In this document: positions 22,404 through 56,727 of the stretch, piece after piece
Layout of the letters: each line of letters begins with the position of its first letter
Position numbering within the stretch: the first letter of the stretch is position 1
NCBI GenBank assembly: GCA_000091205.1
Contig: AP006502.2
Direction: 5' to 3' (one strand)
Source: Cyanidioschyzon merolae
Lineage: Eukaryota
Length of the DNA stretch: 64,000 nt
Position numbers and translations under genes: made by a program
The notes under the pieces: generated by a model
The model's input: only the letters and a program-made list of their open reading frames with translations
What the model was told of the DNA's origin: nothing
The model's database searches: none

Positions 22404-22651
22404 GTCGATTTCGGACACCGACCTTGCGGTCTCCGAAACTTGTCGTCGTCCGCCGGTCTAAAACGCTGGAACAAACCAGCGTCGACATGCCGGATATGTC
22501 GTCCGGGTGGACGCGTGGAGCGGCGCGGGCTACGGCCTCGCCATGAACGCTTCGGGAATGAGTGTTGCTCGCTGACGCCTTGGGAACGCTGTATTCCTGT
22601 ACCGCTTGAGCGATATTTCCGAGCTCGAGTGCTACTCGCTTTTCTGGAGGC

Positions 22652-40524: not shown

Positions 40525-42885
40525 TCATGGTGAAGCGCCTGCAATCTGTGCGAGATTCGCATGACAGTCACGCTCAGAAGGGAGTGCATCACGCTCAGAG
40601 GCAGCTGTTGCTACCTTTGACGTCAACGCATCAATCTGCCGAAACTGCCACGGCCAGCGAATATTATATAGAAAAGGCCGCAGGTCAAAGCGATTGTCTT
40701 CGGGGCTGTAATTCTCACAGTGTACACTTGGCGTAAGCACCGTCATCTTATGGCGATTCACTGAATACATTCGAAAGAAGAACTTCACCTTCTCCGCAAC
40801 TTGCGACGGCGATAAATGCGCCTTCCACAAACGACTTAGCCTTTCGTACATGGAGACGGGTCCACAGCGCCCAATTTTCCGCAAACGCCCGTATACGGTG
40901 AGTTCCGCATAGGTCATGCCCATATCGGCCTCATCCGTCTGGACATATTCGCCAGTGATGGGTTCGAGTTCGGCGGTTGGCGGCGCCTCCACGACCTGCT
41001 GGAGGGTCTCGAAACCCAGCTCGTGCACCGCCCAGAGGAGGAAACGACGTAGGTCGTGCTTGGAGATGCCTCCAATAGGATTGATATCCGCAGAACTGGC
41101 ATCGTACTTGGTGAGATATCCACGCAGGGCCTCGTCGACGTTGGCGGATCCGAGCACCAGCAGCGTTCGCTGGCCATGGCCGCGAGCCCACGGCAGCAGC
41201 TGAGCAAAGAGATAGCTTAGCACCATTCGTATCCGCGCCTGAATATTCTGGAGTGCAGCATTTTCTACCGCGCTCCCGCCTTGGACTCGAAAACGCGGTC
41301 TCTCACCCGCAACCAGCGTAAAGACGCTGAGCACTGCAGCAACGACCGCATCGATCGGCAAATCCAGATGATATGCTCCAATTTCTTTCGCCAGTTGAGC
41401 TGCGCGTTCCCGTGTGGCTCGGCTCGAGTTCTCGCTCCGCATGTAAGCTGTATGGAGAATTCGAGACGCAAACTCATGAGCGTCCCGAGGAATGTACGCA
41501 TCTGCTGCGTTCTCCGTCAATTCAGCATCCGTACCTAATCCGAGAATGCGACGCGCCTCCCTGATGACGTGATCATTCCGCTGTTGGGCCTCGACTGCTA
41601 CCAGGCGACACATGGACGCCACAATCGTTGCCGTCGCTGAGCTATCTGCACCGCCACTCAACGGGAGAAAGAAACCGCTCGCGCCACTTCTCCGCAAATA
41701 GTCCCAAAGCCAACACGCCGGTCCATACGCGATCTCCTCCTCGGCAGAGAGCAACCGTACCGGCACTGGTTGACTCGGCATGTACTGCAGCTGCTCACCG
41801 TCAGAGAGAACAAGCCGGAACGACCTCTCCGATGGGTCAACAGAAGCCGGAACAGCTCGTTGCGAAGCGTCGCCAATGAATGCTGGACTGAATGCGCATC
41901 CCGTTGGCATCCCATCGATCCGTCCAGCGATATCCTCATGCCGCAACGATACGCTACGGCCTGCAGCATCGATGCGCGGCACGGGCGCCGTCGACGCTGC
42001 CTGAACGCCACGGCTGGCGATCGCGATGCGGTACGCAGTGATCTCGTCGAGATCGATGGTTGCGGTAATCACTTCAACTTCATCAGCGATTGAGAACTGT
42101 GACGCTTGGGCAACAATCTCACCGTTGATACATATAAGTGCACATCCATCGTAGTAGAGCCGTCCACCATCGCAACCCTGCTGGTTGGCGTAGAGGTAGG
42201 CACCGCCGCCTTTAGCCGTTGCACTTCGCAACAGATCGATACGTTGGTTTAGTTTCCGCAGGTTGTGATGCGACCCACTCCCATTACCGATGATATCACA
42301 GCCATTGAGGCTGTAGCGTATATGAGGAGCGTCCGGGGTGAAGAGCTCTTCACAGGTCTCGCTGGCGACAACCACGCCGCCGATATCGAGCAACGCTTCG
42401 CCGAAGAGCGTTTCCGCTTGCGCACCAGCTGCGACTTGACGAACACAGTCTGGGAGCGGGTACTTTTCAAGTGCTCGTCTACCATTGGCCGGCCATGCTG
42501 TAAACCAGCGAGACTCTCGATAGTTCCCGTCGTCTGCTAGAGCGAGCTTGGGTCGAATCAGAAGGATCCTGCGGTTCAGGAGCAGCACACGACAGTTGTA
42601 GGCTACGTGTCGGTGGAGAACAGGTGCACCCAGGTCGACCAGGATGTCATCTGTGTAGCCTCTCGCGATGATCTCCGCAATAACCTCCCAGCTATGGACG
42701 AAAGTGTCCGGCTCCAGAAAGTGATCCTCGCACCCGTAGCCACTGACTTCTAGTTCTGGACCGAGACGGTAGCGTGCTCCAGCCTCTCTGGCCCGAGCAA
42801 TCGAGCAGCATATTCGCTCCAGGTTACCAGCAAAATCCAGTGACCACTGGTTCAGGTTACAAGTCGCCACCCGAACAAGTCGCAT
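40525..42885 (-). CDS. NADSYN1: Glutamine-dependent NAD+ synthetase (Qns1/NADSYN1 type: N-terminal nitrilase/CN-hydrolase domain + C-terminal NAD synthetase domain)
   Basis: ATG at revcomp 42883-42885, 786 aa. The N-terminus MRLVRVATCNLNQWSLDFAGNLERI is typical of Qns1. The ATP pyrophosphatase motif is FLPLSGGADSS. The protein is collinear along its length and single-exon. Confidence 0.9.
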   Translation of the reverse strand: MRLVRVATCNLNQWSLDFAGNLERICCSIARAREAGARYRLGPELEVSGYGCEDHFLEPDTFVHSWEVIAEIIARGYTDDILVDLGAPVLHRHVAYNCRVLLLNRRILLIRPKLALADDGNYRESRWFTAWPANGRRALEKYPLPDCVRQVAAGAQAETLFGEALLDIGGVVVASETCEELFTPDAPHIRYSLNGCDIIGNGSGSHHNLRKLNQRIDLLRSATAKGGGAYLYANQQGCDGGRLYYDGCALICINGEIVAQASQFSIADEVEVITATIDLDEITAYRIAIASRGVQAASTAPVPRIDAAGRSVSLRHEDIAGRIDGMPTGCAFSPAFIGDASQRAVPASVDPSERSFRLVLSDGEQLQYMPSQPVPVRLLSAEEEIAYGPACWLWDYLRRSGASGFFLPLSGGADSSATATIVASMCRLVAVEAQQRNDHVIREARRILGLGTDAELTENAADAYIPRDAHEFASRILHTAYMRSENSSRATRERAAQLAKEIGAYHLDLPIDAVVAAVLSVFTLVAGERPRFRVQGGSAVENAALQNIQARIRMVLSYLFAQLLPWARGHGQRTLLVLGSANVDEALRGYLTKYDASSADINPIGGISKHDLRRFLLWAVHELGFETLQQVVEAPPTAELEPITGEYVQTDEADMGMTYAELTVYGRLRKIGRCGPVSMYERLSRLWKAHLSPSQVAEKVKFFFRMYSVNRHKMTVLTPSVHCENYSPEDNRFDLRPFLYNIRWPWQFRQIDALTSKVATAASERDALPSERDCHANLAQIAGASP

Positions 42886-43389
42886 CTTCCGTGCAGCGCT
42901 CGCTCTGGAGCACCGGACGTCCAGTAGCGAGGGTCGTCGCCTTGAACTGCACGCCGTTCCGTTCCTCTGCCGGACGGGCGAGCGTCACCGAGCACACCAG
43001 AGCAGACCTAGAATGCTGGACTACACGAATAGAACAAGAGATTCCTGGCGATATCGTCGGTTTGCAGCACAACAGCAGTATTGGCAACTGCGCAGCAAGT
43101 CAGTATGGTGTACGCGCACGAAAACGAGCGAGCGTCCCCGGGAACGTAAACTTGTCGTCCATCACCAGGGTAGAGACGAGCTGTGTTTACTTGGTATATG
43201 TTTATGTGACGCCGTCAATCATGTCCATAAAATGCTTATCTGGGGCGTAGCTTCGGGTCTGTATGTCTAGAGGCATGCGGTCACGGGAGCGAAAACGTTT
43301 CGCGACCATGTAGGGTGCATGAATAGCTATCCGCAGACGCTTTTCAGCGTTTTTTGACCGGCCCGCAGCTATCCGCTTCAGCTTCTACT

Positions 43390-43960
43390 TGTGTTCTTTG
43401 AACCTGAGAGGCTACCCCACGAAGTGAGATTGCGTCAGCTCCACGGGTCTCGTCTTCAGCATCGCGTATCCTATGATATTGATGGCGGTGTTGAAGCCTC
43501 TGTTCACGAACTCAATGCGTTTATTGCCTCTCGTCACAGCTTGTATTGTGTCGAATATTCAATTCGAAAGACGAATGAGCCTCTCTTTGTGGTCATCAAC
43601 GAAACTGCATTCCGTAGCAGCATGATACCGCTGACGGGATTTGCCACAGTACGCTCCCGTCTTTTCTGTTTCCAGCGATAAGAGCCTGGAACTTGAGTCA
43701 TCGCAGCGATCGCTTTTGCCGGGGCATGCGTCACCGCTTGGAACAAGGCGAGCGTAGACGGATCGATATTTTTCGATCTCTTCTCCAATCTGGATTTCCT
43801 TTCCGCACTTGTTTCATCACGCACAACATCGCGTTCCATAACACCCCTATCGAATGGAACAGCGTGGGCTTGCCCAGCGCGAACAGGCAAGCGTTCACGC
43901 GCCACAGAGCAACCGTCTGAGGAGCTATGGTGAACACGTACCAAGACCTGACCTCACTCA
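43390..43960 (+). repeat. Diverged partial copy (D) of the 1.07-kb repeat family, direct orientation
   Basis: 43700-43900 aligns to copy A 7780-8000 at about 75% identity, with agtcatcgcagcgatcg, gcatgcgtcaccgcttgg and gcgagcgtagacggatcga. Its ORFs 43391-43681(+) and 43534-43944(-) resemble copy A/B ORFs at the protein level (DET..ERKSRL...DPS.LA..QAVTHAP..IAA.T.V). Confidence 0.45.
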
Positions 43961-44547
43961 AGTAGCAATGATGCGAATGGTGCACCGATGCTGTATAGCA
44001 AGAAGATGAAAATGACGAGCAGAGCGTAGATCGCAACCTCTCGCCCGTGGTTGAAATGCATTGACAACAGTTGGACGCGTCGAAATCGGGTCTTGAACGC
44101 GGCCATCAACATCAAGCGGCTGCTGAACATGGAGTTGGATAGAAACGAGCGACTGGCGTATTTAAAGCTGGGTGTAAGAGAGAGGAAAAGGAAACGATTG
44201 CAGTAAGAACCCGCAGAGGCTGCTGTTGATGACCATGGAAAGAGATCCAAAGTCTAAAGTGTCCGCCCGTGTTGGAAAGCCCGTTCCATTTTATTCTGAC
44301 GTGCGTATAGCGTTATATCCTGCGCGAATGCAGGTCTCGTGCGACGCTCCACAACAAGTTATGGAAACCCGTCGGCATATGGTAGGCAGAGCCAAGTTCC
44401 ATGCCGTGCCTCAACATCATTCGAAAACTTGATCCCAGTGTCTTCGCGTCTGCACGCTGGTGGCGAGTCGCTTGTTGCTGACGACCTCTTCAGATCGTGT
44501 ATGCCATCAAATGCTGCTGCTGCTGCTGCTGCTTGCCTGAGCGCAGC

Positions 44548-46785
44548 TCAATAACCTTGCGGACAGGTCGCTACGAGTTCCCCAGTAAGACTGTACGCTC
44601 GTGCTTGCGTAATGCGAACATTGGCCATGCGACCTCGCCAGCGCTGGATTCCTCCAGGAGCCTCGAAGAATACTTTCTTATTCGTTCGCGTGCGTCCACA
44701 GACGCCCAATTCCGGGGATTTGGGGTTCACCTCCTCAACCAGTACCTCTTCAATCCGGCCTAAATAACGCTGACTACGAGCATCGACAATACGCATGTTC
44801 AGCTCATTGATCCGGTGCAGACGTTCCATTTTCACCGCTTCCGGCACCTGATTTTCCCAGGAGGCAGCGGGAGTAAAAGGCCGCGGTGAGTACGCTGCCG
44901 TGTTGACATTATCTAACTGTAATGCTTCCATGAGTTCAAGCGTGCGTTGAAATTGCTCCTCAGTTTCTCCGGGAAAGCCAACAATCGCATCGGCGGTGAT
45001 CGCTGCATCGGGGAGGTATTCGCGGATCATTTCGATGATCCGCCGATACCGTTTCGCAGTGTAGCCCCGTCCCATAGCCTTGAGGACCTCATCATCACCA
45101 GCCTGGAACGGAATATGGAAGTAGGGCATGATATTTGGGAGCTCTGCAGTCGCTTGGATGACGCGCGGTGACCAGTACCGCGGATGTGCAGTAATTGCAC
45201 GAATGCGATCGATGCCTGTTGCAGAGACATGACGTAAGAGCTGCGCGAAGGTGACTCGTGGGCGCATGTCCCGGCCGTAGGCATCTATATTTTGACCGAG
45301 AAGCGTCACTTCGCGATAGCCTTCATTTTTCAGCTGGACGACTTCGTTGACGATGGATTCGACGCTGCGTGATTGCTCCAGACCCCGTGTGTACGGCACG
45401 ACGCAGTACGTGCAGCGTTCATTGCAACCATAGGAGATATTTACCCAGGCACAAACCTGGGACTGCCGTCTCGGCTTGGAAATATCCTCCATGATGTGAA
45501 TCGGTTCCGTTGCGACCACTTGATTACCATTTTCAACGTCTTCGAGGAGATCAGCCAGACGGTTGGCATACTGGGGCCCCATCACCAAGTCCAGAGCGGG
45601 AATGCGGCGCAGCATCTTCACGCCTTCCTGCTGTGCAACGCAACCTGCGACGATCAATTTGAGACCTGGATTACTCTTCTCCTTCATTCGAACAAACGGT
45701 CCAAGAAAGCTGTAGACTTTTTGTTCCGCGTGATCGCGGATGGAGCAAGTATTCAGGAGTATGAGATCTGCTTCGTACGGATCTGGTGTGTGCCGGTAAC
45801 CGCATCTTTCGAGCTCGCCAGCCATTCGCTCCGAGTCCGCCAAGTTCATCTGGCAACCAAAAGTCTGCACGTTGTAGAGGCGACGCCTCGTCCTACTGTT
45901 GGGGTTCTCTCGAGCGTACAGCTGCGGCACCAGTTCCCCGCTTCGAATATACCGGGACTTGGTCGCCGTCGGCACGAGTTTGTATTCTGCGTCTTCCACT
46001 CGTACAATGTGGAAGCCGCGTTGCGTCTGCAATTTGAACACCACCCGCGGAGCACTATTGAAGCAGTAGAACTCAAGTTCGGCATCCAGCGAGCCACGAG
46101 CGTGCCAGCCGAGGTCACCTCCGTTGGCTCGCGAGCTCTCGTCCAATGAAAGCGTCCGAGCGAGTGCGTCCATGCTTGCTGCATCGGCGCTGAGTTGCTG
46201 CAGCACCAGGTCGGCCATCTGCTCCGTTGCAAGTAGAATGTGACGGACCCGAACACGATCTACAACCTCTTCCCCTACCGGAAATGCGACATTTGGATTC
46301 GGATTAATCAATGTGGAGCTTGCAAGTGTCTCGGGTGTCGCGTCCAACGCGGTGGTCGCAGGGCCAGTACCGCTGGCGTGCGGTGCCGCTGACATCCCCC
46401 AAGTACGAAACGCGCAACCTTGAGAGCGTCGCTCACAGCGTGCCCTGCGTGCGAGCACTTTTCGCGTTTCGACTGTTGCGCCGCACCAGCCGCTAGACTG
46501 GTTCAAGTGGAGCCCGCATGTGGCGCCGAACCGCGGGTTCACCGGAGAGGTAACCACCGACCACGCAATACAACGCGTCTTGTGCGGTAAGCGCATCGTT
46601 TCTGAGGGAAACCGGTGCGCTCTCCGTTGTGTCCTCTGTGCTGGGTTGTCCGTTGCGCTTCTGACGAGCATCCTTGCGACTGCAGCGCTCTTATCGGTTC
46701 GTCCGGCAAGTGCAAAACACTTGTTTCCCTGCGCTGACGCTGAATAGGTGCAGCCAGGTATCGCTCCGAGAATGATAACGATCAT
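44548..46785 (-). CDS. miaB: Fusion protein: PpiC/parvulin-type PPIase domain + MiaB-family radical-SAM methylthiotransferase (tRNA i6A37 methylthiolase-like), with N-terminal presequence
   Basis: A single 764-codon ORF. The track's start is a GTG. I used the ATG at revcomp 46783-46785, and the start is uncertain. The parvulin signature is [11 protein letters not shown]...[29 protein letters not shown]...GFHIVRVED. The MiaB portion has the N-terminal MTTase cluster [17 protein letters not shown]...LNTCSIRD, radical-SAM [19 protein letters not shown] and a C-terminal TRAM-like region. Confidence 0.8.
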
Positions 46786-48284
46786 CTTGGGATAATCATG
46801 GCTAAAATGGTCGACACTATGGATGGCGCGCTGGGCAGCCACTGCGAAGCGTCAGCGCATCCCAGGTTCTCGGGATGCGAATGCGAATCCGACGAGTTGC
46901 TGGGGCAGGGCTCGTCTGCCGGAGGCAAGCACTGCACGCTCGAAGGCGAAACTTGGAGACAACCTCGGGAGAGATGATTCTGCGGGAAAAATATGGATCG
47001 TGGCTGGTGGTCTCTCCAGGCATCGTGCGGTATGATGGGCACTCTCCCGTCCACGAATCAAATCGAGTGACTAGAGACTCCGGCTCGAGGTAAACGACCC
47101 CTCCAGAAAGAATCCGCAGAAAAGATGAGATTTGAGCATCTGAAACAGGGAGGAAGAGCTTTTGCGAGATATCCGGTCAGCGCAGTCGCTTTAGAATCGC
47201 AGAAAACCCCGAGTGGTGCCTACAATAGTCGCCGCACAACTCGATCTGTATCGAGGACGTTTGTTTATCCCGGGTTCGCCGTCTCAATTCCCTGAGCAAG
47301 CGAACAGGCCACCAGATTCTCCGATGCCCAGCCGTGAAACACAGAGGCCAATTTGTGTGTCTGTCGTCTTGGAATTCGGCAGGAGCTTTCGGTCATCTGG
47401 ACAGAGGTAAGGAATCGAGCGCTGTGGTCAACCGACGGCGAAGCGTCTTGTTTGTGGGAGCACCTCTGACGCTGACCAAGACAGAAACCCGCAATGATCC
47501 GAGAATTTCCGCGACCTGGATTCGAATGCATCTTGTGACCTTCCAATGTTTCAAAGTGTCTCTCAGCACCACTTCGTCATAACCTCTCTCGAAAGAGAAG
47601 ATGTTCGATCCGGAATCCGGTGATATGCGCGGGATTCCATAGCGCTGACGTTGAACAGGGACGGTTCGCGATCGACCCAACAGGAGAGGTCGCTGCTGAA
47701 CACGATCCTACGGGGCAGGTCGCCAGTGTCTATTTGCGAGGCTAGGACCCGCGTAACGGTGGTGGTCCGAACGGTATCGACACAATAGATCTTCGCTCCT
47801 GCAGCTTGTTTCTCGACTTTTCAAGACCAGTTGAATGCGTTTACCCGCCCTGAGACCAAATATGATGCAACAGATGTAGTCGCCGGCGCTTGGATGCGAA
47901 TCGGAGACACCTCTTTCAGTGACGGTACCTGGGGTTTCCGCACCACAGAACTTCGTTCACACATAGCTTGTTTGGAGACGTTTCAAGACTGATTAAATGC
48001 GTTTACCCGCATTCAAATGCAACCGGTGACGTGTGCACTCACGTTGCCGAGACACGTTTGTTCATGAGATAGGTAAAAGTGCCGACAATTCACCGACGGA
48101 TTTCACGAACAGGAGAGCTCTCCACGTACATCTCAAGGCATGCGCAACATTCTCTCCCCAACGCAAAAAAACCCGTTGCGACTATGGACAAATCCGGCCG
48201 ATCTGAGTGCTCATCTGGCTCCGCCCTGGAACTATATCACCTATGGAGATGCAGACTCACACGGCATCTTTGCCCGAGGTGTGC

Positions 48285-48758
48285 CTAGGAGCGCTTCGAG
48301 TCCGTTGTAGCTGCTGTCGGATCGGCGGACTTGAGGCTCTTGAGCTTCATTTCTTCCTTTTGTTTCTCCTCCTTCTCCGCATCTGCTAGGCTCGTCTCAA
48401 GGCCTTCTTTGAACTCCGAGGAGGCCCGCTTCAGGTTGCCTGCGAGCGTTCCCAAGTTCCGCCCAAGCTCGCCAATTCGTGAAGGCCCCCAAATCAGCAG
48501 CCCAACACCCGCAATAACAGCTATCTCCGGCCATCCGAGCCCAAACAAGCCCATTTGCAAAGCGCTAGCTGCACTAGGTCTCGTGCAGTGGCCGGCTCGT
48601 TCGGGGAGCGCGCGCGTCTCCTGAAGCTGCCGTCGCTGCGCCGCCCTGCCACGACGTGACTCGCGAACTAGACTTGCCGCATTTTTCAAGCAAAAAGAAG
48701 AGCAAGAAACACTTTCGTGCAAGTGTTGGTTTGTCTTTGATAGCGACAGCACGAACAT
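48285..48758 (-). CDS. tatA: TatA/Tha4-type Sec-independent translocase subunit with ~68-aa transit-peptide-like N-terminus
   Basis: The mature part MGLFGLGWPEIAVIAGVGLLIWGPSRIGELGRNLGTLAGNLKRASSEFKEGLE matches plant Tha4/TatA (GLFGLGVPELVVIAGVAALVFGPKKLPEVGRSIGK...). The track's start is a GTG, and the first ATG is at revcomp 48756-48758. Confidence 0.7.
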   Translation of the reverse strand: MFVLSLSKTNQHLHESVSCSSFCLKNAASLVRESRRGRAAQRRQLQETRALPERAGHCTRPSAASALQMGLFGLGWPEIAVIAGVGLLIWGPSRIGELGRNLGTLAGNLKRASSEFKEGLETSLADAEKEEKQKEEMKLKSLKSADPTAATTDSKRS

Positions 48759-50741
48759 TGCCAGTGTGTATGTCCGAGGCACCTCGAACACCAGAGAGCA
48801 ATCCGAAGTACGCTGCGCAATGCGTTTCCAGAGAATCGATGGACGGGTCCAGCGCAGGCGAGGCACGTCCGCCAGCACGAAGCACGTGTTCGGAATATAC
48901 AGTTAAGTCAGTAAATGTCCATGCATGCATGCTGTGCAGGCTTGGCATGCCCCGTTCCGTCAACTGCTTCAGCGTTCTGCATAGCCTTCGAACGTGCACT
49001 GTAAACAGCCTTGCTTCCATGCGCGTGCACCATGGGCCTTGATGTCGGTTTCAGCTCCGCGCTGGTGGACGCAGACGCTTCCACCTATCTGATAACCGCG
49101 CTTGCTCGCGCACGGGCTGCCCAGACCAACACGGCGGAAATTCGCCCTATGAGCCACAGCAATGTCGCAGCTGGACGAATTTGAAGTTGGTTTGTGTATC
49201 GAAAACGGCGACGAAATGATCACAATTTTCCTTTCCCATCCGTGAATCGGGATAGCGCAAACGAGTAACCAGGCAGGCCAGCTCTGCCTCCAGTGCTGGA
49301 GGTGTGATGTGCACGCCTTGTCGATGAGTGCGGCAACATCTTCTCTGGCGGGCGACGAAGCCTACCAGTTTATAGCTTGACTCGCACCTGATTCGTGGCG
49401 CCCGTGAGCCTCATCGATGGGATTCCTGTCAAACGACAACCATCTTTTCACGGACATTCTCAATTTGCTAATTCACATGGAAAGGATGAGCGATCCAGGG
49501 TAACATACACCGTTCGTATACCGAGCGTTGTTCTGTGCACAAGTGTCGCGCCTGTCGATACGCAGCTTAATGGAGACCGTTCAACGACTTGCAGCCGTGG
49601 ATGTGTTTCCATGCGTATGCGTGCGCGCTGAATATCCTCTTCTGGATTCGAGCGGACGGACGCGATATCGAGTGGCGCGTGTACCTATTTATCCGAGGCG
49701 TCTTGGATGCTCGCGCTCCAAAGCAATGTGCGCAGCGCCCTTCCAAACAAGACTTGCTTCAGCATAGCGTCTGTCGCAGTCTGAAGTCCGACTCGCGTTT
49801 CCGCCGACCCCGTGCGTCGCCTCGCAAGTCCACACCAGCATCACCAAGAACAACAAAAACAACAACAACAGCAGCAGCAAGTCCCGCAGCTAGCGAAGCA
49901 CGCTGCCCAGCTCGGCATATAAAATGCTAGAGCGGCGTCTGTCTGGCGGCGATGCTGACATTTGCTGGGCTTTTCGTCTCGTCGCCTTGAAGGCGTATTG
50001 AAACCCTGACCGCATCCATGCTTAGCGCCGTGACTCTGGTGCGCAGCCACAGGTATCCCTTCGCCACGCCTGTGAAGCATCTATTTTCTAACGCCGACAG
50101 TGAAACCGGTCTGGCGATCGTAGGACGTGGAAGCATCCACGGGAGCAGAGTTCTCTCTTGGCTGATGCCAGACAACACGGGTGCCCCGGGAGAATCCACC
50201 TGGGATGCATAGATTCTCGCCTTTGGAGGTGCACACGAAATCGCTGGAGCGCGCGTGCGTAGAATCGGGGATCCGCAGGCTCGCTGGAAGCCGTCCTGCG
50301 CTCGCGGGAAACGCATCACTCGCCATTTCGTGCTAACAGGCTCACTCGCTTTTCTGCTGGTGCTGGTGCTGGTGCTGGTGCCGGTGCCTGCGTTAGACGC
50401 CTGCAGCAGCTCCTTGAGCGTCGTAACAAGCGCCCGCGGCACACTCGTTACCCCGGAGGACGCTCTGTTGAACGACCCTGGGCTTCATAGACGAACGCTA
50501 CGCTGAAGCTGCTACGCCAAACTATTTGCGTAGGAGGAAAAGTGGACGCCGCCGCTGCCTATAGGCAGCTTTCGCACACCCGGAAGCGTCAGGTTAGAGG
50601 CCAAACTCCTGCGCCATAGGAAGATCGAGCCAAGTCAGGCTGGTACCCTCTGGTTGCATACAACATCCACTGCATAGCAGCGAAGCATACCATCCATTTT
50701 CCAACACGTGGACGATTTATCTGTGCGAGCTGCGGGCGCCA

Positions 50742-51623
50742 ATGCCAGCGCACCATCTGAGCGCCAAATGGCGCCAAGTGAAGACGAAACGGACTCGGAA
50801 GACCCCCGCCACTGTGGCGCCGAAGAGCGTCGCCTTGCCAGAGACCGTTCGACAACGGCTCGAGCAGGCGCGGCGCGAAGCGATCGACTTTGCCGCGCTC
50901 GAGTACCTGTACGCCAGCGTACCACCTCTACGCTCTGTTATCGACGCACATCCGCCTCCGCACTTTCTTGCATGCGATGTGTTCACGGTGCTCGTCCAGG
51001 CTATTGTCTGGCAGCAGGTGAGTGCACGGGCGGCTGCTAAACTTTGGCCGAGACTCGTCGAGGTTCTCGAAACGCAGGTACCTGGATCAATCCGCCGTTC
51101 GATGCCGCATCTCTACGTGAATCCTGGTCCGTTGGCGAGCATTCCGGATCCTGCGCTTTTGCGCGCTGCCGGCATTCCGCAAAGTCGCTGTGCAGCGATC
51201 GTCGAGGCGGCTCGTGCTTTTCACGCGAAACCGGACCTCTACCATAACTGGAACGACTCCATCGAAGATGACGAAGTCGTTCGGAGACTGTGTTGCCTCC
51301 GAGGTGTTGGTGAATGGACGGCTCACATGGTGCTCATGTTCGCGATGCGTCGGATGAATGTGCTGCCCGTAGGGGATCTTGGCGTGCGACGCGGCTTTGC
51401 AGTGGTTTTCGATCTCAAGCCAGATGCCAGACGGGAACAAGGCGCTGCAGGTCGCCGTTCGGTGTTGCCGTCACCGGATGCGGTAAAGAAATTTGCCTCG
51501 AGTGCGGCATGCGGCAATGGGCGTTTTCTCACAGTTGTTTCCTATTACATGTGGCGGGCTGCGGGTGCTGATGTTCTCGTTCCCGACGGAACGCTCGTAC
51601 CAGACCTCGCTAGCACTGTCTGA
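50742..51623 (+). CDS. HhH-GPD superfamily DNA-3-methyladenine glycosylase II (AlkA/Mag1-like)
   Basis: ATG start. The helix-hairpin-helix/GPD region reads LRGVGEWTAHMVLMFAMRRMNVLPVGDLGVRRG, preceded by the AlkA-like helical domain (VQAIVWQQVSARAAAKLW). The catalytic Asp lies in VGDLG. Confidence 0.7.
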   Translation: MPAHHLSAKWRQVKTKRTRKTPATVAPKSVALPETVRQRLEQARREAIDFAALEYLYASVPPLRSVIDAHPPPHFLACDVFTVLVQAIVWQQVSARAAAKLWPRLVEVLETQVPGSIRRSMPHLYVNPGPLASIPDPALLRAAGIPQSRCAAIVEAARAFHAKPDLYHNWNDSIEDDEVVRRLCCLRGVGEWTAHMVLMFAMRRMNVLPVGDLGVRRGFAVVFDLKPDARREQGAAGRRSVLPSPDAVKKFASSAACGNGRFLTVVSYYMWRAAGADVLVPDGTLVPDLASTV

Positions 51624-51677
51624 GAACGCGACGCCCATGGGTTACCGCTTGCACCCACGGAACGCGGATCCATGTTC

Positions 51678-51707
51678 TGATGATGATGATGATGATGATG
51701 ATGATGA
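51678..51707. repeat. (GAT)n microsatellite immediately 3' of the AlkA-like gene
   Basis: tgatgatgatgatgatgatgatgatgatgac is visible directly in the sequence. Confidence 0.9.
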
Positions 51708-52378
51708 CGAAGCCAAAACGGTGGGTTCGTGCTTTCCGCGGACATCCTGGCCTAACTGCCGACCTTGAGGCAACGAATCTCGGGTGTTGCACGCTGCGTG
51801 CATTGCATTCGGACTCAGGATGGGTGTTTTCACGTCACGTAGCGTCCTGAATCTTATCGGATAAAAACCTGACGAGGCAGTCGGCTAGATGACTGAGATA
51901 ACAATAGCATCCCGCAGATTTTTGTGTATCAGGCCTGGTACAGAGGATTCCCCTGAAAGCTCGATCCTCTGACGAAAATTGCCTTCAGTTGCGAGGTCGC
52001 AAGGCGATCGCAGTGCGTTCGCCTGCCGTCCCAATGACCAGCAGATTCCATAGTGTCGCAGTGAGGCAGCGGAGAGCGTAGCACAGCTGCGAGACGCTCG
52101 CTATGCTGTTTGTGGTCTGCAGTTTTGGAGTTTGTCTGCGATGTGGACAACCCATTTCCGAAGCGGAACGCCCAACCTTATTCGTTGATGAAAAACGGAT
52201 GATTCCGTCCTGCCACCTCATCGGGCGAGATCATGTCCGACCTGCTCAGGCATTGTCGCCGGCGACGGGTTTGCGATACATTCGGATGGTGCGATGGTGA
52301 ACAAGCACCGAGAGACACGGCTTTCTTTGAGAAGCAAAATGCGCTAGGTGCCGTCAGAAAGCGACGCCAGACTAGACG

Positions 52379-54184
52379 TTACCAGTTGTGTTTCAAAAAG
52401 TCGACTGCCCTGGTCCGCCAAGCCAACAAGTTCTGCATCCAATGAGACCAGTTTCCTGACTCTGGGCTCGCACCAGCACTGGAGAAACCATCATTTGTCG
52501 CCACATACCGAGAGTTGTGCCGAGCTGTGGTCTGCGTCCGAGCTTCCGCACGCCCTGGCTTGTCAGCGTCCGTCTTCTTCGGAAAAGTCCGCTCTGGTGT
52601 GCCCTGCGATGCGTTTCGAGGCGCACTGGGAGCCCCCTGCCGGCGATGACGATCAACTGTGGCATGCGGCCCTGCTGGGGGGCGCACCAACGACTCAGAG
52701 TTCTGCGATGTTTCGCGAAAAGTTTCGTTTGCGACTTTTTGCCTCCTTGACGTGGACATCTCCGCAACGTCAGATGCCTTTGCAAACCAGCTGCGGATGG
52801 AAAAAGGCGCAGCAGCAGGGGCAGGCGTCGTCTGTAGCGTACGACCTGCCGTGATAATTACGGACACGCGCACTGTACCCGTGAGCGACTCGTCGAACGC
52901 TGACCCGAAGATGATATTTGCATGGGGCCCAGTGCGATCCCGAATCAGTGAGGCAATCTCGTTGACCTCGTCCAAGAGGAGATCTCGACCGCCTGAAATG
53001 CTGATGAGCGCTCCACGAGCCTGTCCGAGAGAAATTCCGTCCAGCAGGGGATTGTTCAAGGCTAGCTCAATCGCTCGGCGACCCCGGTCGATTCGCGCCT
53101 GTGGCGACGATGCCGTATCCACGGAACGCTGGGGCAGAGAAGCGTTCCCATTTGCCATTGGTGCGGAGCAGCCACTCGCCTCGCCCATGCCAAACACAGC
53201 TCTGCCAGCGTTGCGGGTGATCGCATCTAGATCTGCAAAGTCCAAGTTAATAAACCCGTTGGTATACATGAGGTCGGTTACCGAGCGAATCGTCTTACAG
53301 AGCACGTCATCGGCAAGCTGAAAGGCGCTTTGCAACGTTGTTCGATTTGTTGCGAGTCGGAAAAGATTTTGATTGGGAATCGTGACTATTGTGTCCACCT
53401 GCGGCTCCAGTTCGTCGAGGCCCTGCTCTGCGAGGCGCATACGATGACGTCCTTCGAAAGCGAACGGCGTACTCACGACGGCGATTGTCAGGACACCGGC
53501 TGCTCGGGCGGCCTGGGCAATGACCGGCGCCGCGCCTGTACCGGTACCTCCACCCAGTCCCGCTGTCAAAAACAGAATATGAGCGTTCCGTATTTCTTCC
53601 ATAAGCAGGGGAAGGCAGGCGCGCGCTGCCTCGCGGCCTACGGAGGGGTTTGCGCCCGCCCCGAGCCCAGCCGTCAAGCGTTCCCCCAGGCAGAAGGTTC
53701 GGTCAGCAAGGGAGAACGAAAGCGCCTGGGCGTCGGTATTCGCCGCCAGCAGTCGCAGGCCCTGAAATGGGTCCAGATGAAGCTCTGAATTGCGATCCGC
53801 GCTGCGTTGTTGGTTCTGTTGGCGTAGAGATCGTACCAGGTTGTTAATGGTATTGCCGCCGGCGCCACCGACCCCCAGAGCAACCATACGGGGTCTCGAA
53901 AAAACTCGTAAAGATTGTCCTTCTACAGTGCAGCGTTGCTCGGTTGTTCGTAAATCATTCGCCAACTGGGTCACGGCCGGTTCAGGAGCACGACGCAGGG
54001 CCTCAGTGCACTTTGCGGGAGTGTGCACGGCTCTTATGCAAGAGCTTTCCGCCTGCGACTGCGCTTGCGATAGCATATCGCCATGCCAGCGAAAGCGCTT
54101 CCAGCAAATCAAGACACGAGCTGACCGATCGTCCCAAAGTCCCGCCGGGCACCCGTGTACCCGGGTTCTCCAGTGCTGGAACAT
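52379..54184 (-). CDS. ftsZ: FtsZ (organelle division GTPase) with N-terminal presequence, internal insertion and long C-terminal extension
   Basis: The track's start is a GTG, and the first ATG is at revcomp 54182-54184. The tubulin/FtsZ signature GVGGAGGNTIN is present, with LFLTAGLGGGTGTGAAPVIAQAA, IVTIPN and the T7 loop region. A ~25-aa insert lies between GMGEASG and RAIELALNNPLLDG. About 150 aa of low-complexity sequence follows the core. Confidence 0.85.
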   Translation of the reverse strand: MFQHWRTRVHGCPAGLWDDRSARVLICWKRFRWHGDMLSQAQSQAESSCIRAVHTPAKCTEALRRAPEPAVTQLANDLRTTEQRCTVEGQSLRVFSRPRMVALGVGGAGGNTINNLVRSLRQQNQQRSADRNSELHLDPFQGLRLLAANTDAQALSFSLADRTFCLGERLTAGLGAGANPSVGREAARACLPLLMEEIRNAHILFLTAGLGGGTGTGAAPVIAQAARAAGVLTIAVVSTPFAFEGRHRMRLAEQGLDELEPQVDTIVTIPNQNLFRLATNRTTLQSAFQLADDVLCKTIRSVTDLMYTNGFINLDFADLDAITRNAGRAVFGMGEASGCSAPMANGNASLPQRSVDTASSPQARIDRGRRAIELALNNPLLDGISLGQARGALISISGGRDLLLDEVNEIASLIRDRTGPHANIIFGSAFDESLTGTVRVSVIITAGRTLQTTPAPAAAPFSIRSWFAKASDVAEMSTSRRQKVANETFRETSQNSESLVRPPAGPHATVDRHRRQGAPSAPRNASQGTPERTFPKKTDADKPGRAEARTQTTARHNSRYVATNDGFSSAGASPESGNWSHWMQNLLAWRTRAVDFLKHNW

Positions 54185-55273
54185 GTCACCGCAAGAACGC
54201 GAAGTTACCAGGAACGGAATCCACACGAAGGCTCAGTTTCCCGCGCATTTTTCGACGCCGCCGCGCACGGTGCTGTCTCGCCGCGGCTGTGCGCGCGGAT
54301 CCGCTGATTCCGGTGGTACGTTCAGCGGTGTGCCTCCGCATGCCCCGCGTGTGTCTCTGGAACACGGCGTTGACACTGACAGGTGATTGCCCAATGCGCA
54401 CTTGATCTCAGTCATCGGGGGAGCGTTTATCGCTCTACTCGCCTTTGAATTCCATTCAGCATACTAATATTTGGACATACTGGATATTTCCCATGGAAAA
54501 CTGCGCACCGTGTCGAGCGTGAGCACCTGCTATAGCGCCTATAGCGTCGGTGCGGTCGCAGCAGGGAGACACAAGGGATTTGCTGTATTACCGGGGAGAG
54601 TCGGCTTGTGGTGTAATTCACCCGATGCGGGTTCTGATCTTGGTATCGATTTGTGTCCGGAACGTCCGACCACATGCCCAACGCCATGCGCAATGTTGCA
54701 TGCGCGCGCGATTCTCCTTTCGCCGAGTGCCCCGCATCGGCTGTCGAGGTCGAAGAGGCAGCGCGTTCATTTCGGGACTATTATGGCGCCTACGCTGCCG
54801 GGGTATCGAGGCGGATGAGCGTCAGGTCCACCATGGACATGGACAAGCAAGGTGCGTCTTGATGCCACAGGAATGATGCGACTGAGCTCGAGCGCGTTGG
54901 TGATGGACGACCCATGCCGAGCGGATTCTTCCGCTGCTCGAGATGCCTGCGCCCGGCAGCCTGTGCGGTCGGAATCGATGGCGAAGCGAACAAGGCAGGC
55001 TGATTCCGCCGCAACTCGACGCGATTGGATGACTCGAATCGAGCACTGCGGGAGCCTGCATTCGAGCCCCGATGACAACGCTCCCCAGCGTATCACAAGA
55101 AGACCTCCCATTTGCTTATAAGATGGTGTACCCATTCGCCTTGATGCACACAGGATGCTGCCGTCCACTTTGCCGAACATGCTGCAAGCATCGATCGGCC
55201 GCAAAGCTCGTTGAGGCGCGCCGATGCTTGCGCTTCGTATCCGCTGGGTGCGGGGGCACGCGGGCCCCACTCG

Positions 55274-55489
55274 CCAGAAACGCGCGCATACGGCACAAGA
55301 TCGACATCGAATTTGGGATATCATGGTTCTTTACGGACCATATTGGACTATCGGAAAGCCTCAGCTATCTGGCTCTCATTGTCCAGAAACGCGTGCATGC
55401 AGCACAAGATCGACATCGAATTTGGGATATCATGGTTCTTTACGGACCATATTGGACTATCGGAAAGCCTCAGCTATCTGGCTCTCATT
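55274..55489. repeat. Tandem direct duplication, 2 x ~108 bp, in the FtsZ/TraB divergent intergenic region
   Basis: 55274-55380 and 55383-55489 are nearly identical (ccagaaacgcg.gcat.c.gcacaagatcgacatcgaatttgggatatcatggttctttacggaccatattggactatcggaaagcctcagctatctggctctcatt). Confidence 0.8.
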
Positions 55490-55650
55490 CGCATTGATCA
55501 TCAGCGCTGCACGAGCGCTGCAACGGATTCCCGAACGCGCTGCTGTACCGCACACCAGGCAAGTTGTGGGCCGCACCAGGCTGGTTCTCTTTGACAGAGA
55601 GACGCTTACGGCGGTGGCGGTGGCGGTGGTGGCGGTGTTGGTCGTCGGAC

Positions 55651-56727
55651 ATGTCGACTGTCGCGGTTCGGGCTCGTTGGCTATCCGGGATTTGGCGATG
55701 GCGCGGCTTCCGCCAGTTCGTGCGTAGCGAGCAGTGGTGGCGCCGGGAGCCACGTCCGGCGGCCTACCGCACCCTGGTACCGCAGGCGCAACCTGCTTTT
55801 CGAGTCTGGGTTTCTGGGAGCTTATCGACCTCGGCTGGGAACTCGACCTTCGGGAGCGCTCCCGGGGACGAGACGACCAACAGTACAGGTACGGCTGCTG
55901 CGCTGACTGACGATAATCCACTCCGTCTCGTGAACGGCTCCACCGGGGCTGTCGCACACGTTCTCGGGACCGCGCACATATCAGCGCTCTCCGTTTCGCA
56001 GACTCGGGAGTTGATTCGAAGGGTTCAACCGGATACCGTGGTGGTGGAGCTGGACGACGAACGCGTTCAGACCGTGCGAGAGCGTCTGGACAAGAAAGAC
56101 CCGTCTCAGGACTCGTCGCTCTTCAGCGAGTTGCTGCGCGTCTTTACTGACCCAAGAGGCGGTTCTCTCGGTTCGCGCATGTTCGAAGTGTATTTCAAAC
56201 TCATGTATCGTGCGTTGAGAATGGCAGGGTTTCTCCCGGGTGCCGAGTTTGTTGCGGCGATTGAGGAAGCCGAACGCATCGGTGCGCGAGTCGTCCTCGG
56301 CGATCGAAACATTCACGAGACCATGGAAAGGCTGCGTGCCGCTGTGTTTCATAACTTCTCCGATGTGTTACATGCTCTAGTTTCTCCACCTCCGCCGGAG
56401 CTTGAGAGTCTACTTGACAACTTGAAGGACCAGGCTCGAGGCGGCAACGCGCGAAAGATCAGCACTGATTTTGTTGATGCACTTCTGGACCGCAAGTCTG
56501 TGCGCCTGCTCACGCGTTTTCTGTCGCGCTCCTTGCCGGCCGTCTCCAAGGTCATGCTTGATGAACGCGACGTGATACTTGCGTCGAAAATAGCCACAGC
56601 ACCAGGGCAAAAAATCGTCGCGATTGTGGGAGCAGCGCACCTTGATGGCATTGAGCGCTGGTGGCTGCAAAATATCGAACCAGATCCGATTATCGTATCG
56701 TCGTCACCATTGCCGTCACAATCGTAG
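55651..56727 (+). CDS. TraB/PrgY/GumN-family protein (TRABD-like)
   Basis: Motifs are HVLGTAHISALSVSQTRELIRRVQPDTVVVELDDER, AEFVAAIEEAERIGARVVLGDRNI and IVAIVGAAHLDGIERWW. The track's start is a TTG. I used the ATG at 55651, and upstream lies an Arg/Trp-rich stretch. Confidence 0.7.
   Translation: MSTVAVRARWLSGIWRWRGFRQFVRSEQWWRREPRPAAYRTLVPQAQPAFRVWVSGSLSTSAGNSTFGSAPGDETTNSTGTAAALTDDNPLRLVNGSTGAVAHVLGTAHISALSVSQTRELIRRVQPDTVVVELDDERVQTVRERLDKKDPSQDSSLFSELLRVFTDPRGGSLGSRMFEVYFKLMYRALRMAGFLPGAEFVAAIEEAERIGARVVLGDRNIHETMERLRAAVFHNFSDVLHALVSPPPPELESLLDNLKDQARGGNARKISTDFVDALLDRKSVRLLTRFLSRSLPAVSKVMLDERDVILASKIATAPGQKIVAIVGAAHLDGIERWWLQNIEPDPIIVSSSPLPSQS

What the first reader, a model, noticed from the sequence alone, without database searches (positions are those of the whole stretch)
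44548..46842. Single ORF fusing a parvulin (PpiC) rotamase domain to a MiaB-type radical-SAM methylthiotransferase
Upstream of a complete MiaB-like enzyme (MTTase N-domain [11 protein letters not shown], radical-SAM [12 protein letters not shown]-like end) the same reading frame encodes a clear parvulin PPIase signature. It reads RHILLATEQ...[22 protein letters not shown]...GFHIVRV, with no stop or obvious intron between the two parts. I know of no such domain architecture, and it would couple a prolyl isomerase to a tRNA-modifying enzyme. The true N-terminus is uncertain: the track's start is a GTG and candidate ATGs lie 20 and 58 codons in.
Basis: partly seen in the sequence, partly recalled or inferred. 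Interest (0 to 1): 0.6.

Follow-up and report, generated by a model that had tools for sequence, protein, structure and literature searches.

The report
Plastid MiaB enzyme fused to parvulin
This is a real Cyanidioschyzon merolae (red alga) gene encoding a tRNA-modifying enzyme (MiaB) of cyanobacterial origin, probably plastid-targeted, with a prolyl-isomerase (parvulin) domain built onto its front; the same fusion occurs across red algae, diatoms, brown algae, haptophytes and chromerids and sits in sequence databases, but I found no paper that studies it.

Summary
One uninterrupted minus-strand ORF (44548-46842) encodes a parvulin/PpiC domain (aa 193-284, Pfam E 1e-12) followed by a complete MiaB: UPF0004, radical SAM and TRAM domains, above NCBIfam's MiaB equivalog cut-off.

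The window is Cyanidioschyzon merolae 10D. The gene is already deposited as XP_005539454.1, "2-methylthioadenine synthetase", 707 aa, starting at the ATG at codon 58.

The fusion is neither a read-through nor an assembly artefact. The same architecture appears in three other Cyanidiales genomes, Galdieria, Rhodosorus, brown algae, diatoms, Nannochloropsis, haptophytes, Chromera and Vitrella, and in complete MMETSP transcripts.

The MiaB part is 62-65% identical to cyanobacterial MiaB, which lacks the parvulin domain. Heterokont orthologues start with a signal peptide followed by a Phe motif, which indicates plastid targeting.

The parvulin domain is under purifying selection (dN 0.19, against 0.81 for the presequence). 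It keeps the His/Asp(Cys)/His active-site residues in about 30 of 35 fusions, is acidic, and folds like PrsA-type PPIases.

What the domain does for MiaB is unknown. My best guess is a tethered foldase or chaperone.

UniRef already auto-names many orthologues "Peptidylprolyl isomerase", but I found no paper describing the fusion. I rate it a new variant of a known kind, of moderate interest.

The parts
44548..46842 (-). Whole ORF, 764 codons from the GTG, stop codon at 44548-44550. It is the C. merolae 10D gene for XP_005539454.1 / BAM83418.1, '2-methylthioadenine synthetase'.
   Evidence: P0130 is 100% identical to the ORF from M58 onward.
46291..46671 (-). N-terminal presequence and probable plastid transit peptide, aa 58-184 (M58 is the GenBank start; alternative starts are M20 at 46785 and M83 at 46596). 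It is poorly conserved, basic and rich in Ser/Thr. It contains the motif 'IAWSVVTSP', which aligns with 'MFVVAP' at the very start of the Cyanidium orthologue.
   Evidence: alignment. (8-11% identity to other Cyanidiales). (12 K/R, 4 D/E and 21 S/T in aa 83-184). (dN 0.81). Targeting itself is inferred, not shown.
45985..46266 (-). Parvulin (PpiC-type PPIase) domain, aa 193-286. The active-site equivalents are H201, D234 (the Pin1 Cys113 / Par14 Asp74 position) and H278, with the GGDLGW motif at 241-246.
   Evidence: Pfam. (PDB PrsA, PpiD and SurA sequence hits). (Foldseek to 6xd8 PrsA PPIase, TM 0.93, rmsd 1.1). (residue conservation). (dN 0.19).
45877..45984 (-). Linker, aa 287-322. It begins with a short conserved segment (YKLVPT) that is predicted as an extra beta-strand, followed by a variable, low-confidence stretch.
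   Evidence: (29-50% identity within Cyanidiales). (pLDDT 49-74 for model residues 110-135, strand at model residues 108-111). (the same strand appears in Galdieria).
45577..45876 (-). MiaB N-terminal methylthiotransferase (UPF0004) domain, aa 323-422, with the three auxiliary-cluster cysteines C330, C366 and C401.
   Evidence: (the three cysteines are invariant in 19 sequences)..
44932..45444 (-). Radical-SAM core, aa 467-637, with the CxxxCxxC motif at C473, C477 and C480.
   Evidence: MiaB 7mjx, TM 0.92 normalised to the target.
44572..44772 (-). TRAM (tRNA-binding) domain, aa 691-757.

Best explanation
This is the nuclear gene of the red alga Cyanidioschyzon merolae for an organellar MiaB, almost certainly plastid-located. 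It was acquired from the cyanobacterial endosymbiont.

The encoded protein has four parts:
1. A transit peptide.
2. A bacterial-type parvulin domain.
3. A flexible linker.
4. A complete MiaB (auxiliary [4Fe-4S] domain, radical-SAM domain and TRAM domain).

The MiaB part methylthiolates i6A37 to ms2i6A37 on plastid tRNAs that read UNN codons.

The parvulin domain was fused on once, early in the red lineage. Lineages with red-derived plastids (ochrophytes, haptophytes, chromerids) inherited the fusion.

The domain is folded, selectively constrained and acidic, and in most lineages it keeps the catalytic His / Cys-or-Asp / His set. I therefore infer that it acts on protein rather than RNA. Its most likely role is a tethered foldase or chaperone serving MiaB itself, for example folding after import, or handling of the Fe-S apo-enzyme.

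What is shown: the domain identities, the conservation of the fusion, the cyanobacterial affinity and the purifying selection. What is inferred: plastid location in C. merolae, PPIase activity, and above all the cis-acting foldase role. My confidence is about 0.95 for the identity and only about 0.3 for the foldase role.
For: - Domains.
- Organism and annotation.
- Cyanobacterial affinity of the MiaB part: 62-65% identity to roughly 450-aa cyanobacterial MiaBs that lack a rotamase domain.
- Spread of the fusion: Cyanidiales, Galdieria, Rhodosorus, brown algae, Chrysoparadoxa, Nannochloropsis, diatoms, Prymnesium, Chrysochromulina, Chromera and Vitrella.
- Single origin: in an unrooted NJ tree one split separates all cyanobacterial MiaBs from all fusion proteins.
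- Specificity of the parvulin subfamily: its closest relatives are all pieces of the same fusion. Of 34 single-domain hits, 16 carry UPF0004 and none carries another partner. L002 shows a rotamase exon followed by UPF0004 to TRAM exons.
- Plastid targeting: heterokont orthologues have a signal peptide followed by an A|F motif. The C. merolae presequence is basic and rich in Ser/Thr.
- Constraint: parvulin identity within Cyanidiales is 69-76%, against 8-11% for the presequence and 29-50% for the linker. dN is 0.19 for the parvulin domain, 0.81 for the presequence, 0.58 for the linker and 0.065 for MiaB.
- Catalytic residues: His201 in 31 of 35 fusions, Cys or Asp234 in 34 of 35, His278 in 30 of 35.
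- Charge: acidic, median pI 5.1.
- AF2 models: pLDDT above 90 for the parvulin domain. Whole-chain pTM is 0.86 for C. merolae and 0.82 for Galdieria, both above the roughly 0.76 fraction of residues that belong to MiaB. This suggests the domain is placed against MiaB (indirect).
- Precedent for MiaB as a PPIase client: E. coli MiaB co-purifies with the cyclophilin PpiB and less with its R43A variant (PMC7353009).
- ms2i6A37 is documented in chloroplast tRNAs (PMC8877259).
Against: - There are no experimental data for this protein. Localisation, PPIase activity and MiaB activity are all untested.
- Cyanobacterial and bacterial MiaBs work without a parvulin domain, so the domain is not intrinsically needed for the chemistry.
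- The Galdieria clade has replaced both catalytic histidines (Gln and Leu) yet keeps a confidently folded domain. This argues that catalysis is not the universally conserved function.
- The linker is long and variable, which would equally suit two independent activities.
- The docking inference rests on pTM only. No PAE or coordinates were available.
- The one cyanobacterial miaB neighbourhood I inspected has no parvulin gene, so there is no operon-level link.
Confidence: 0.5

Rival explanations
1. The parvulin domain is mainly a non-catalytic binding or docking module, like the inactive parvulin domains of PpiD and SurA-P1. It would recruit a partner to MiaB, for example ferredoxin, an Fe-S carrier that rebuilds the sacrificed auxiliary cluster, or MiaA. 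Alternatively it would gate the tRNA-binding surface. Prolyl isomerisation would be dispensable.
For: Galdieria orthologues (P0014, P0016, P0019) have Gln and Leu in place of both catalytic histidines, and P0059 and P0008 are also degenerate. The Galdieria domain is still predicted folded, with whole-chain pTM 0.82. The domain is acidic and could pair with basic surfaces. Brown algae tolerate an insertion of about 45-65 aa inside the domain.
Against: About 30 of 35 fusions keep the complete His / Cys-or-Asp / His set and GG[DE][LIV]GW. That is more conservation than a pure scaffold needs. No partner has been identified.
Confidence: 0.25
2. The protein carries two functionally independent enzymes that share only one promoter and one transit peptide. 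The parvulin would be a general stromal PPIase, possibly released by cleavage in the linker, and MiaB would work alone.
For: The linker is variable in length and sequence and has low model confidence. Bacterial MiaB needs no parvulin domain.
Against: The fusion has been kept in every lineage sampled, from Cyanidiales to diatoms and chromerids, with no split versions among the closest relatives of either half. A conserved strand follows the parvulin domain. The pTM values suggest a fixed arrangement.
Confidence: 0.2
3. The protein is mitochondrial or dual-targeted rather than plastid-located.
For: The C. merolae presequence could not be run through a targeting predictor here. Its basic, Ser/Thr-rich composition fits mitochondrial presequences as well.
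Against: The MiaB part is closest to cyanobacteria. The family was found only in plastid-bearing algae among named hits. Heterokont orthologues carry a signal peptide plus Phe motif, which is specific to complex plastids.
Confidence: 0.04
4. The fusion is an artefact: a sequencing or assembly read-through, or a mis-merged gene model joining two neighbouring genes.
Against: The same continuous ORF is present in near-identical hot-spring metagenome contigs. It is also present in syntenic position in a relative that is 83% identical, in more than 100 orthologues, and in complete transcripts.
Confidence: 0.01

Closest known systems
Bacterial and cyanobacterial MiaB (tRNA i6A37 methylthiotransferase; solved for Bacteroides uniformis, PDB 7MJV-7MJZ)
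   Same: Same three-domain core with all six cluster cysteines. It scores above NCBIfam's MiaB equivalog cut-off. It is 62-65% identical to cyanobacterial MiaB, and the model superposes on 7mjx at TM 0.92.
   Different: This protein has about 320 extra N-terminal residues (presequence, parvulin domain and linker). It also has a 7-residue deletion with a fusion-invariant Pro528 in the [10 protein letters not shown] loop.
Bacterial-type parvulins: PrsA, PpiD and SurA PPIase domains, and PpiC/Par10
   Same: Same fold (6xd8, TM 0.93, rmsd 1.1), the His...Cys/Asp...His residues, and the GGDLGW motif. The best NCBIfam and PDB sequence hits are PrsA, PpiD and PpiC.
   Different: It reaches none of those full-length family cut-offs. 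It lacks their chaperone (NC or SurA N-terminal) domains and is fused to an Fe-S RNA-modifying enzyme instead. It forms its own subfamily, found only with MiaB.
NifM, the parvulin-family accessory protein needed to mature the [4Fe-4S] nitrogenase Fe protein NifH (from my own knowledge)
   Same: It is a conceptual precedent: a parvulin dedicated to one Fe-S enzyme.
   Different: NifM is a separate protein rather than a fusion. Sequence similarity here is marginal (TIGR02933, E 0.004, 17 bits against a cut-off of 168). This is an analogy only.
Plant parvulin-rhodanese proteins (AtPin3 / wheat TaPar32; PMC9797600)
   Same: A parvulin domain fused to a sulfur-related domain in photosynthetic eukaryotes. 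The GG.LGW and G.H.V.V motifs are shared (38% identity over 47 aa).
   Different: The partner domain (rhodanese) and the domain order are different. The similarity is no closer than to E. coli PpiC. No rhodanese partner appears among the closest relatives of this parvulin.
Apicoplast MiaB of Plasmodium falciparum (PF3D7_0622200; PMC8844926)
   Same: A nucleus-encoded MiaB in a red-derived plastid, ferredoxin-dependent, predicted to make ms2i6A37. The chromerid relatives Vitrella and Chromera carry the parvulin fusion.
   Different: Whether the Plasmodium protein keeps the parvulin domain was not tested here. The paper does not mention one.

Membership tests
MiaB (tRNA i6A37 C2-methylthiotransferase, TIGR01574 equivalog) | Whole-protein score above the curated equivalog cut-off, and better than the RimO and MtaB models | tested here: met
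   TIGR01574 scores 437.3 bits against a cut-off of 355.3. RimO scores 307 (cut-off 357) and MtaB 300 (cut-off 357), both below their cut-offs.
MiaB (tRNA i6A37 C2-methylthiotransferase, TIGR01574 equivalog) | UPF0004 + radical SAM + TRAM architecture, with three N-terminal Cys for the auxiliary cluster and a CxxxCxxC motif | tested here: met
   (domains). C330, C366, C401, C473, C477 and C480 are invariant.
MiaB (tRNA i6A37 C2-methylthiotransferase, TIGR01574 equivalog) | Fold matches solved MiaB | tested here: met
   7mjx_A, E 2e-40, TM 0.92 (normalised to the target), rmsd 2.3 over 445 columns.
MiaB (tRNA i6A37 C2-methylthiotransferase, TIGR01574 equivalog) | Converts i6A37 to ms2i6A37 on tRNA | not testable with these tools
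   Needs LC-MS of plastid tRNA or complementation of an E. coli miaB mutant.
Parvulin / PpiC-type PPIase (PF00639, PF13616) | Pfam score above the gathering threshold | tested here: met
   48.7 bits (cut-off 22.5) and 46.6 bits (cut-off 21.7).
Parvulin / PpiC-type PPIase (PF00639, PF13616) | Parvulin fold (four-stranded sheet with helices) | tested here: met
   pLDDT above 90 over the domain; 6xd8_A, TM 0.93, rmsd 1.1; also Pin1 and Par14.
Parvulin / PpiC-type PPIase (PF00639, PF13616) | Active-site residues equivalent to Pin1 His59, Cys113 (Asp in Par14) and His157 | tested here: met
   H201, D234 and H278 in C. merolae. Not met in the Galdieria clade (Q, D, L). The mapping to Pin1/Par10 numbering rests on my own knowledge of those sequences.
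Parvulin / PpiC-type PPIase (PF00639, PF13616) | Measurable prolyl cis/trans isomerase activity | not testable with these tools
   Needs a protease-coupled or NMR exchange assay on recombinant protein.
Pin1-type (phospho-specific) parvulin | WW domain | tested here: not met
   no WW domain. The nearest relatives are bacterial PrsA, PpiD and PpiC. The basic phosphate-binding loop was not examined in detail.
Parvulin-rhodanese (AtPin3-like) | C-terminal rhodanese domain | tested here: not met
   no rhodanese domain; none among 34 close relatives.
Nucleus-encoded plastid-targeted protein | N-terminal targeting presequence | tested here: inconclusive
   C. merolae has a presequence of about 100-125 aa that is unconserved, basic and Ser/Thr-rich, but no predictor or localisation data were available. 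Heterokont orthologues clearly show a signal peptide followed by a Phe motif.

The most novel reading that the evidence does not exclude
In red-lineage plastids, MiaB may have become dependent on a built-in parvulin. That domain would control a proline-dependent step of the enzyme's own life cycle. Candidates are folding after import, or opening of the N-terminal domain so that the sacrificial auxiliary [4Fe-4S] cluster can be rebuilt after each turnover. This would be the first case of a radical-SAM RNA-modifying enzyme that needs an intramolecular prolyl isomerase. It could also be a lineage-specific handle on plastid translation in diatoms, brown algae, haptophytes and relatives of apicomplexans.
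Probability: 0.2. Interest if true: 0.65.

Novelty: new variant of a known kind. Interest (0 to 1): 0.45.

Why it matters
MiaB-type enzymes consume their own auxiliary Fe-S cluster as the sulfur source. How they are matured and repaired in organelles is poorly understood.

A parvulin domain welded to plastid MiaB in lineages from Cyanidiales to diatoms, brown algae, haptophytes and chromerids is a natural "Rosetta stone" fusion. It points to a functional link between prolyl isomerisation or chaperoning and this radical-SAM enzyme.

C. merolae is genetically tractable, and the protein has no introns. Deleting or point-mutating the domain and measuring ms2i6A in plastid tRNA is therefore a direct test.

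The fusion is also a clean molecular marker for the red plastid lineage.

If the two halves turn out to be functionally independent, the finding is only a curiosity of gene architecture.

Tried and rejected
- **AlphaFold-database fold search.** I wanted this for a taxon list, but the afdb50 library was not available.
- **Prokaryotic genome scan with the parvulin alignment.** Whether any prokaryote has the fusion, or a close parvulin donor, is therefore untested.
- **Parvulin-only word-indexed search.** It returned only short proteins, mostly fragments or exons of the same fusion, and did not reveal the domain's origin.
- **Exhaustive profile search.** The top of the list is dominated by multi-parvulin bacterial proteins through summed scores. 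I therefore analysed only the single-stretch hits.
- **Operon-level link in cyanobacteria.** The one miaB neighbourhood inspected (Leptolyngbya NIES-2104) has no rotamase gene. This is a single genome, so the evidence is weak.
- **Special kinship with plant parvulin-rhodanese (AtPin3/TaPar32).** Rejected. Similarity is 38% over 47 aa, no better than to E. coli PpiC, and there is no rhodanese among close relatives.
- **NifM kinship.** The hit is marginal, so I keep NifM only as an analogy.
- **RNA-binding role for the parvulin domain.** Considered unlikely because the domain is acidic.
- **Fusion-specific prolines in the MiaB part as a possible intramolecular substrate.** Only Pro528 stands out, and some cyanobacteria have a similar short loop. 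Not decisive.
- **dN/dS.** Synonymous sites are saturated (pS 0.72-0.87), so only the dN values are informative.
- **Literature.** Six searches for parvulin/PpiC/PPIase with MiaB or methylthiotransferase, or for C. merolae with parvulin or methylthiotransferase, found no description of the fusion.
Full report

Yes. The ORF lister gives one open frame on the minus strand at 44548-46842, 764 codons from a GTG. Pfam places four domains in that single frame:
- a PpiC-type rotamase domain at aa 193-284 (Rotamase_3 E 1.3e-12, Rotamase E 7e-12, both at about twice the gathering score)
- UPF0004 at aa 324-422
- Radical_SAM at aa 467-637
- TRAM at aa 691-757

NCBIfam's MiaB equivalog model TIGR01574 scores 437 bits against a cut-off of 355. 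The RimO and MtaB models stay below their cut-offs.

The GTG is just the first possible start after an in-frame TGA at 46852-46854. In-frame ATGs lie at codons 20, 58 and 83.

**2. What and whose gene is it?**

An exact-sequence look-up puts a 707-aa protein in the 90%-identity cluster of the best homologue. That protein is Cyanidioschyzon merolae 10D XP_005539454.1 / BAM83418.1 / UniRef100_M1VMQ1, annotated "2-methylthioadenine synthetase", on a 1.62-Mb record. It is 100% identical to the ORF from Met58 onward.

The rest of the window fits a compact, intron-poor eukaryotic chromosome carrying organelle-related nuclear genes: TatA, FtsZ, an RlmN-like enzyme, mTERF and NAD synthetase.

An orthologue that is 83% identical sits on a hot-spring metagenome contig in the same gene order, TraB-FtsZ-HhH-GPD-TatA-[parvulin-MiaB]-NAD synthetase.

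**3. Is the fusion genuine and conserved?**

The first homology search found the same architecture (PF00639/PF13616 plus the MiaB domains) in these taxa:
- Cyanidiococcus, Cyanidium and Galdieria
- Rhodosorus
- Vitrella
- the brown algae Scytosiphon and Pylaiella
- Chrysoparadoxa
- complete MMETSP transcripts

A second search used a profile built from 34 fusion proteins. It returned 120 long eukaryotic proteins (503-861 aa), of which 96 carry a precomputed rotamase hit. Several of the other 24 visibly contain the domain. Named taxa now also include:
- Prymnesium and Chrysochromulina (haptophytes)
- Nannochloropsis
- the diatoms Seminavis, Cylindrotheca, Nitzschia, Cyclotella, Thalassiosira, Pseudo-nitzschia and Skeletonema
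- Chromera

A eukaryotic metagenome contig shows the intron-split form. A rotamase exon is followed by UPF0004 to TRAM exons.

A sequencing read-through, a merged gene model and a pair of separate mRNAs are therefore all excluded.

UniRef already names several orthologues "Peptidylprolyl isomerase" by automatic annotation. The architecture is thus present in databases. Six full-text searches found no paper that describes or studies it.

**4. Origin**

The MiaB part is 62-65% identical to cyanobacterial MiaBs. Those proteins are about 450 aa long and have no rotamase domain. In an unrooted neighbour-joining tree of the MiaB part, one split separates all cyanobacterial sequences from all eukaryotic fusion proteins. 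The tree has no bootstrap support values. This fits one endosymbiotic gene transfer and one fusion event.

The parvulin domain is of the bacterial PrsA/PpiD/PpiC type, not the eukaryotic Pin1 or Par14 type.

I also ran an exhaustive profile search of 1.84 billion representative proteins. Among the 34 single-domain hits I scanned from its top 150, all but two match a rotamase family and none carries any domain other than MiaB domains. Sixteen carry UPF0004. This parvulin subfamily was therefore seen only fused to MiaB.

The one cyanobacterial miaB neighbourhood I inspected has no parvulin gene. No named hit was a green plant or a glaucophyte, but their absence was not tested directly.

**5. Targeting**

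Residues up to about 184 are essentially unconserved even among Cyanidiales (8-11% identity; dN 0.81). They are basic and rich in Ser/Thr.

The Cyanidium orthologue starts "MFVVAP". This aligns with "WLVAP" in the two closer relatives and with "IAWSVVTSP" in C. merolae. From my own knowledge, it resembles the Phe-containing N-terminal motif of red-algal transit peptides. It also makes Met83 a plausible start.

Heterokont orthologues begin with a hydrophobic signal peptide followed by the classical A|F junction:
- TTA|FSP in Seminavis
- SRA|FVP in Nitzschia
- TRA|FQ in Cyclotella
- VQC|FT in Nannochloropsis
- AAG|FA in Pylaiella

That junction is the hallmark of complex-plastid import. Plastid location in C. 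merolae is therefore a strong inference, but it is not shown.

**6. State of the two halves**

The MiaB part has all six cluster cysteines invariant (C330, C366, C401; C473, C477, C480). Its model superposes on Bacteroides MiaB at TM 0.92.

MiaB makes ms2i6A37 on tRNAs that read UNN codons. This modification is documented in chloroplast tRNA-Phe, -Trp, -Tyr and -Cys (PMC8877259). In a red-derived plastid the enzyme is considered ferredoxin-dependent (PMC8844926).

The parvulin part is predicted with pLDDT above 90 and matches the PrsA PPIase domain at TM 0.93, rmsd 1.1 Å.

Its active-site equivalents are H201, D234 and H278. D234 sits at the position that is Cys in Pin1 and Par10 and Asp in Par14. 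This mapping uses my own recollection of the Par10 sequence, which aligns at 33% identity. Across 35 fusion proteins the counts are:
- His201 in 31
- Cys or Asp234 in 34
- His278 in 30
- GG[DE][LIV]GW nearly invariant

The domain is under clear purifying selection. dN is 0.19, against 0.81 for the presequence, 0.58 for the linker and 0.065 for MiaB. Synonymous sites are saturated.

The domain is acidic (median pI 5.1, net charge -5). This argues against an RNA-binding role.

There is one notable exception. The Galdieria clade has replaced both histidines (Gln and Leu), yet it keeps a confidently folded domain.

**7. How the two halves may work together**

No tool result addresses this directly. 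Four indirect hints exist:
- The fusion has been retained in every lineage sampled.
- A short conserved segment after the last parvulin strand (YKLVPT) is predicted as an extra beta-strand in both C. merolae and Galdieria.
- Whole-chain pTM values of 0.86 and 0.82 exceed the roughly 0.76 expected if only the MiaB residues were mutually well placed. This suggests AlphaFold positions the parvulin domain against MiaB. No PAE or coordinates were available.
- In E. coli, MiaB co-purifies with the cyclophilin PpiB, and less so with the PPIase-dead R43A variant (PMC7353009). MiaB may therefore be a natural PPIase client.

From my own knowledge, NifM is a precedent: a parvulin-type protein dedicated to maturing the [4Fe-4S] protein NifH. 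Sequence similarity to NifM here is marginal.

My best guess is that the domain is a tethered foldase or chaperone for MiaB, acting after import or during Fe-S handling (confidence about 0.3). The rivals are:
- a non-catalytic docking or regulatory module, supported by the Galdieria substitutions
- two independent activities that merely share a transit peptide

**8. Comparison with known systems and novelty**

Both halves pass their family membership tests. The combination is not a member of any described multidomain family:
- There is no WW domain, so it is not Pin1-like.
- There are no chaperone NC domains, so it is not PrsA-, SurA- or PpiD-like.
- There is no rhodanese domain, so it is not like plant AtPin3/TaPar32 (PMC9797600).

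It is best described as a new, lineage-wide variant of MiaB that is visible in databases but unstudied.

**9. Verdict**

The finding is real and correctly read. It is neither an artefact nor unique to this genome.

Interest is moderate (0.45). A tRNA-modification or plastid specialist would find a conserved parvulin-MiaB fusion across the red lineage noteworthy and easy to test in C. merolae. It is still a domain-architecture variant of well-known families, and no function has been demonstrated for the coupling.

Noticed in passing
window 48285-48878 (-): An ORF with a TatA/Hcf106 (mttA) domain at aa 114-162, preceded by an N-terminal extension of about 110 aa. It is probably the nucleus-encoded plastid Tat-pathway component (Tha4/TatA). 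It sits next to the parvulin-MiaB gene, and the adjacency is conserved in L003.
   Followed up: partly
window 40525-56727 versus L003 1-13811: The gene order NAD synthetase, parvulin-MiaB, TatA, HhH-GPD glycosylase, FtsZ, TraB-family is conserved between this window and a hot-spring metagenome contig from a Cyanidiales relative whose MiaB orthologue is 83% identical.
   Followed up: partly
window 20967-22418 (-): A second radical-SAM RNA-modifying enzyme in the window: an RlmN-like protein (RlmN_N plus Radical_SAM) with an N-terminal extension of about 100 aa. It is possibly another organelle-targeted enzyme of bacterial origin.
   Followed up: no
window 52379-54226 (-): An FtsZ homologue (Tubulin/FtsZ GTPase plus FtsZ_C) with an N-terminal extension of about 110 aa, presumably an organelle-division FtsZ.
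   Followed up: no
window 43839-43913 (-): ARAGORN calls a tRNA-Ala(CGC) about 630 bp downstream of the MiaB stop codon. Rfam finds no tRNA match there even at E <= 1. It is either a false positive or a non-canonical tRNA gene. From my own knowledge, C. merolae is known for unusual tRNA genes.
   Followed up: partly
orthologues P0015, P0017, P0009 (brown algae), alignment A1 columns about 290-350: Brown-algal fusion proteins carry a Pro/Ala/Ser-rich insertion of about 45-65 aa inside the parvulin domain, between the GW strand and the following helix. Galdieria has a shorter insertion at the same place.
   Followed up: no
orthologues P0014, P0016, P0019 (Galdieria clade): Both catalytic histidines of the parvulin domain are replaced (Gln and Leu), yet the domain is still predicted folded. 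The P0014 gene model also carries a C-terminal Ribosomal_S7 (PF00177) extension, probably a merged gene model.
   Followed up: partly
window aa 520-535 of the ORF (about 45238-45285, -): All 35 fusion proteins share a 7-residue deletion and an invariant Pro528 in the loop [10 protein letters not shown], relative to most cyanobacterial MiaBs (GRDLPGVTPEGRHLHTF). A few cyanobacteria (for example P0053) have a similar short loop, which may hint at the donor lineage.
   Followed up: partly
window 45373-46149 (+): A 258-codon ORF lies antisense to the MiaB coding region. It was not examined further, and I take it to be a shadow ORF of the conserved gene on the other strand rather than a gene.
   Followed up: no
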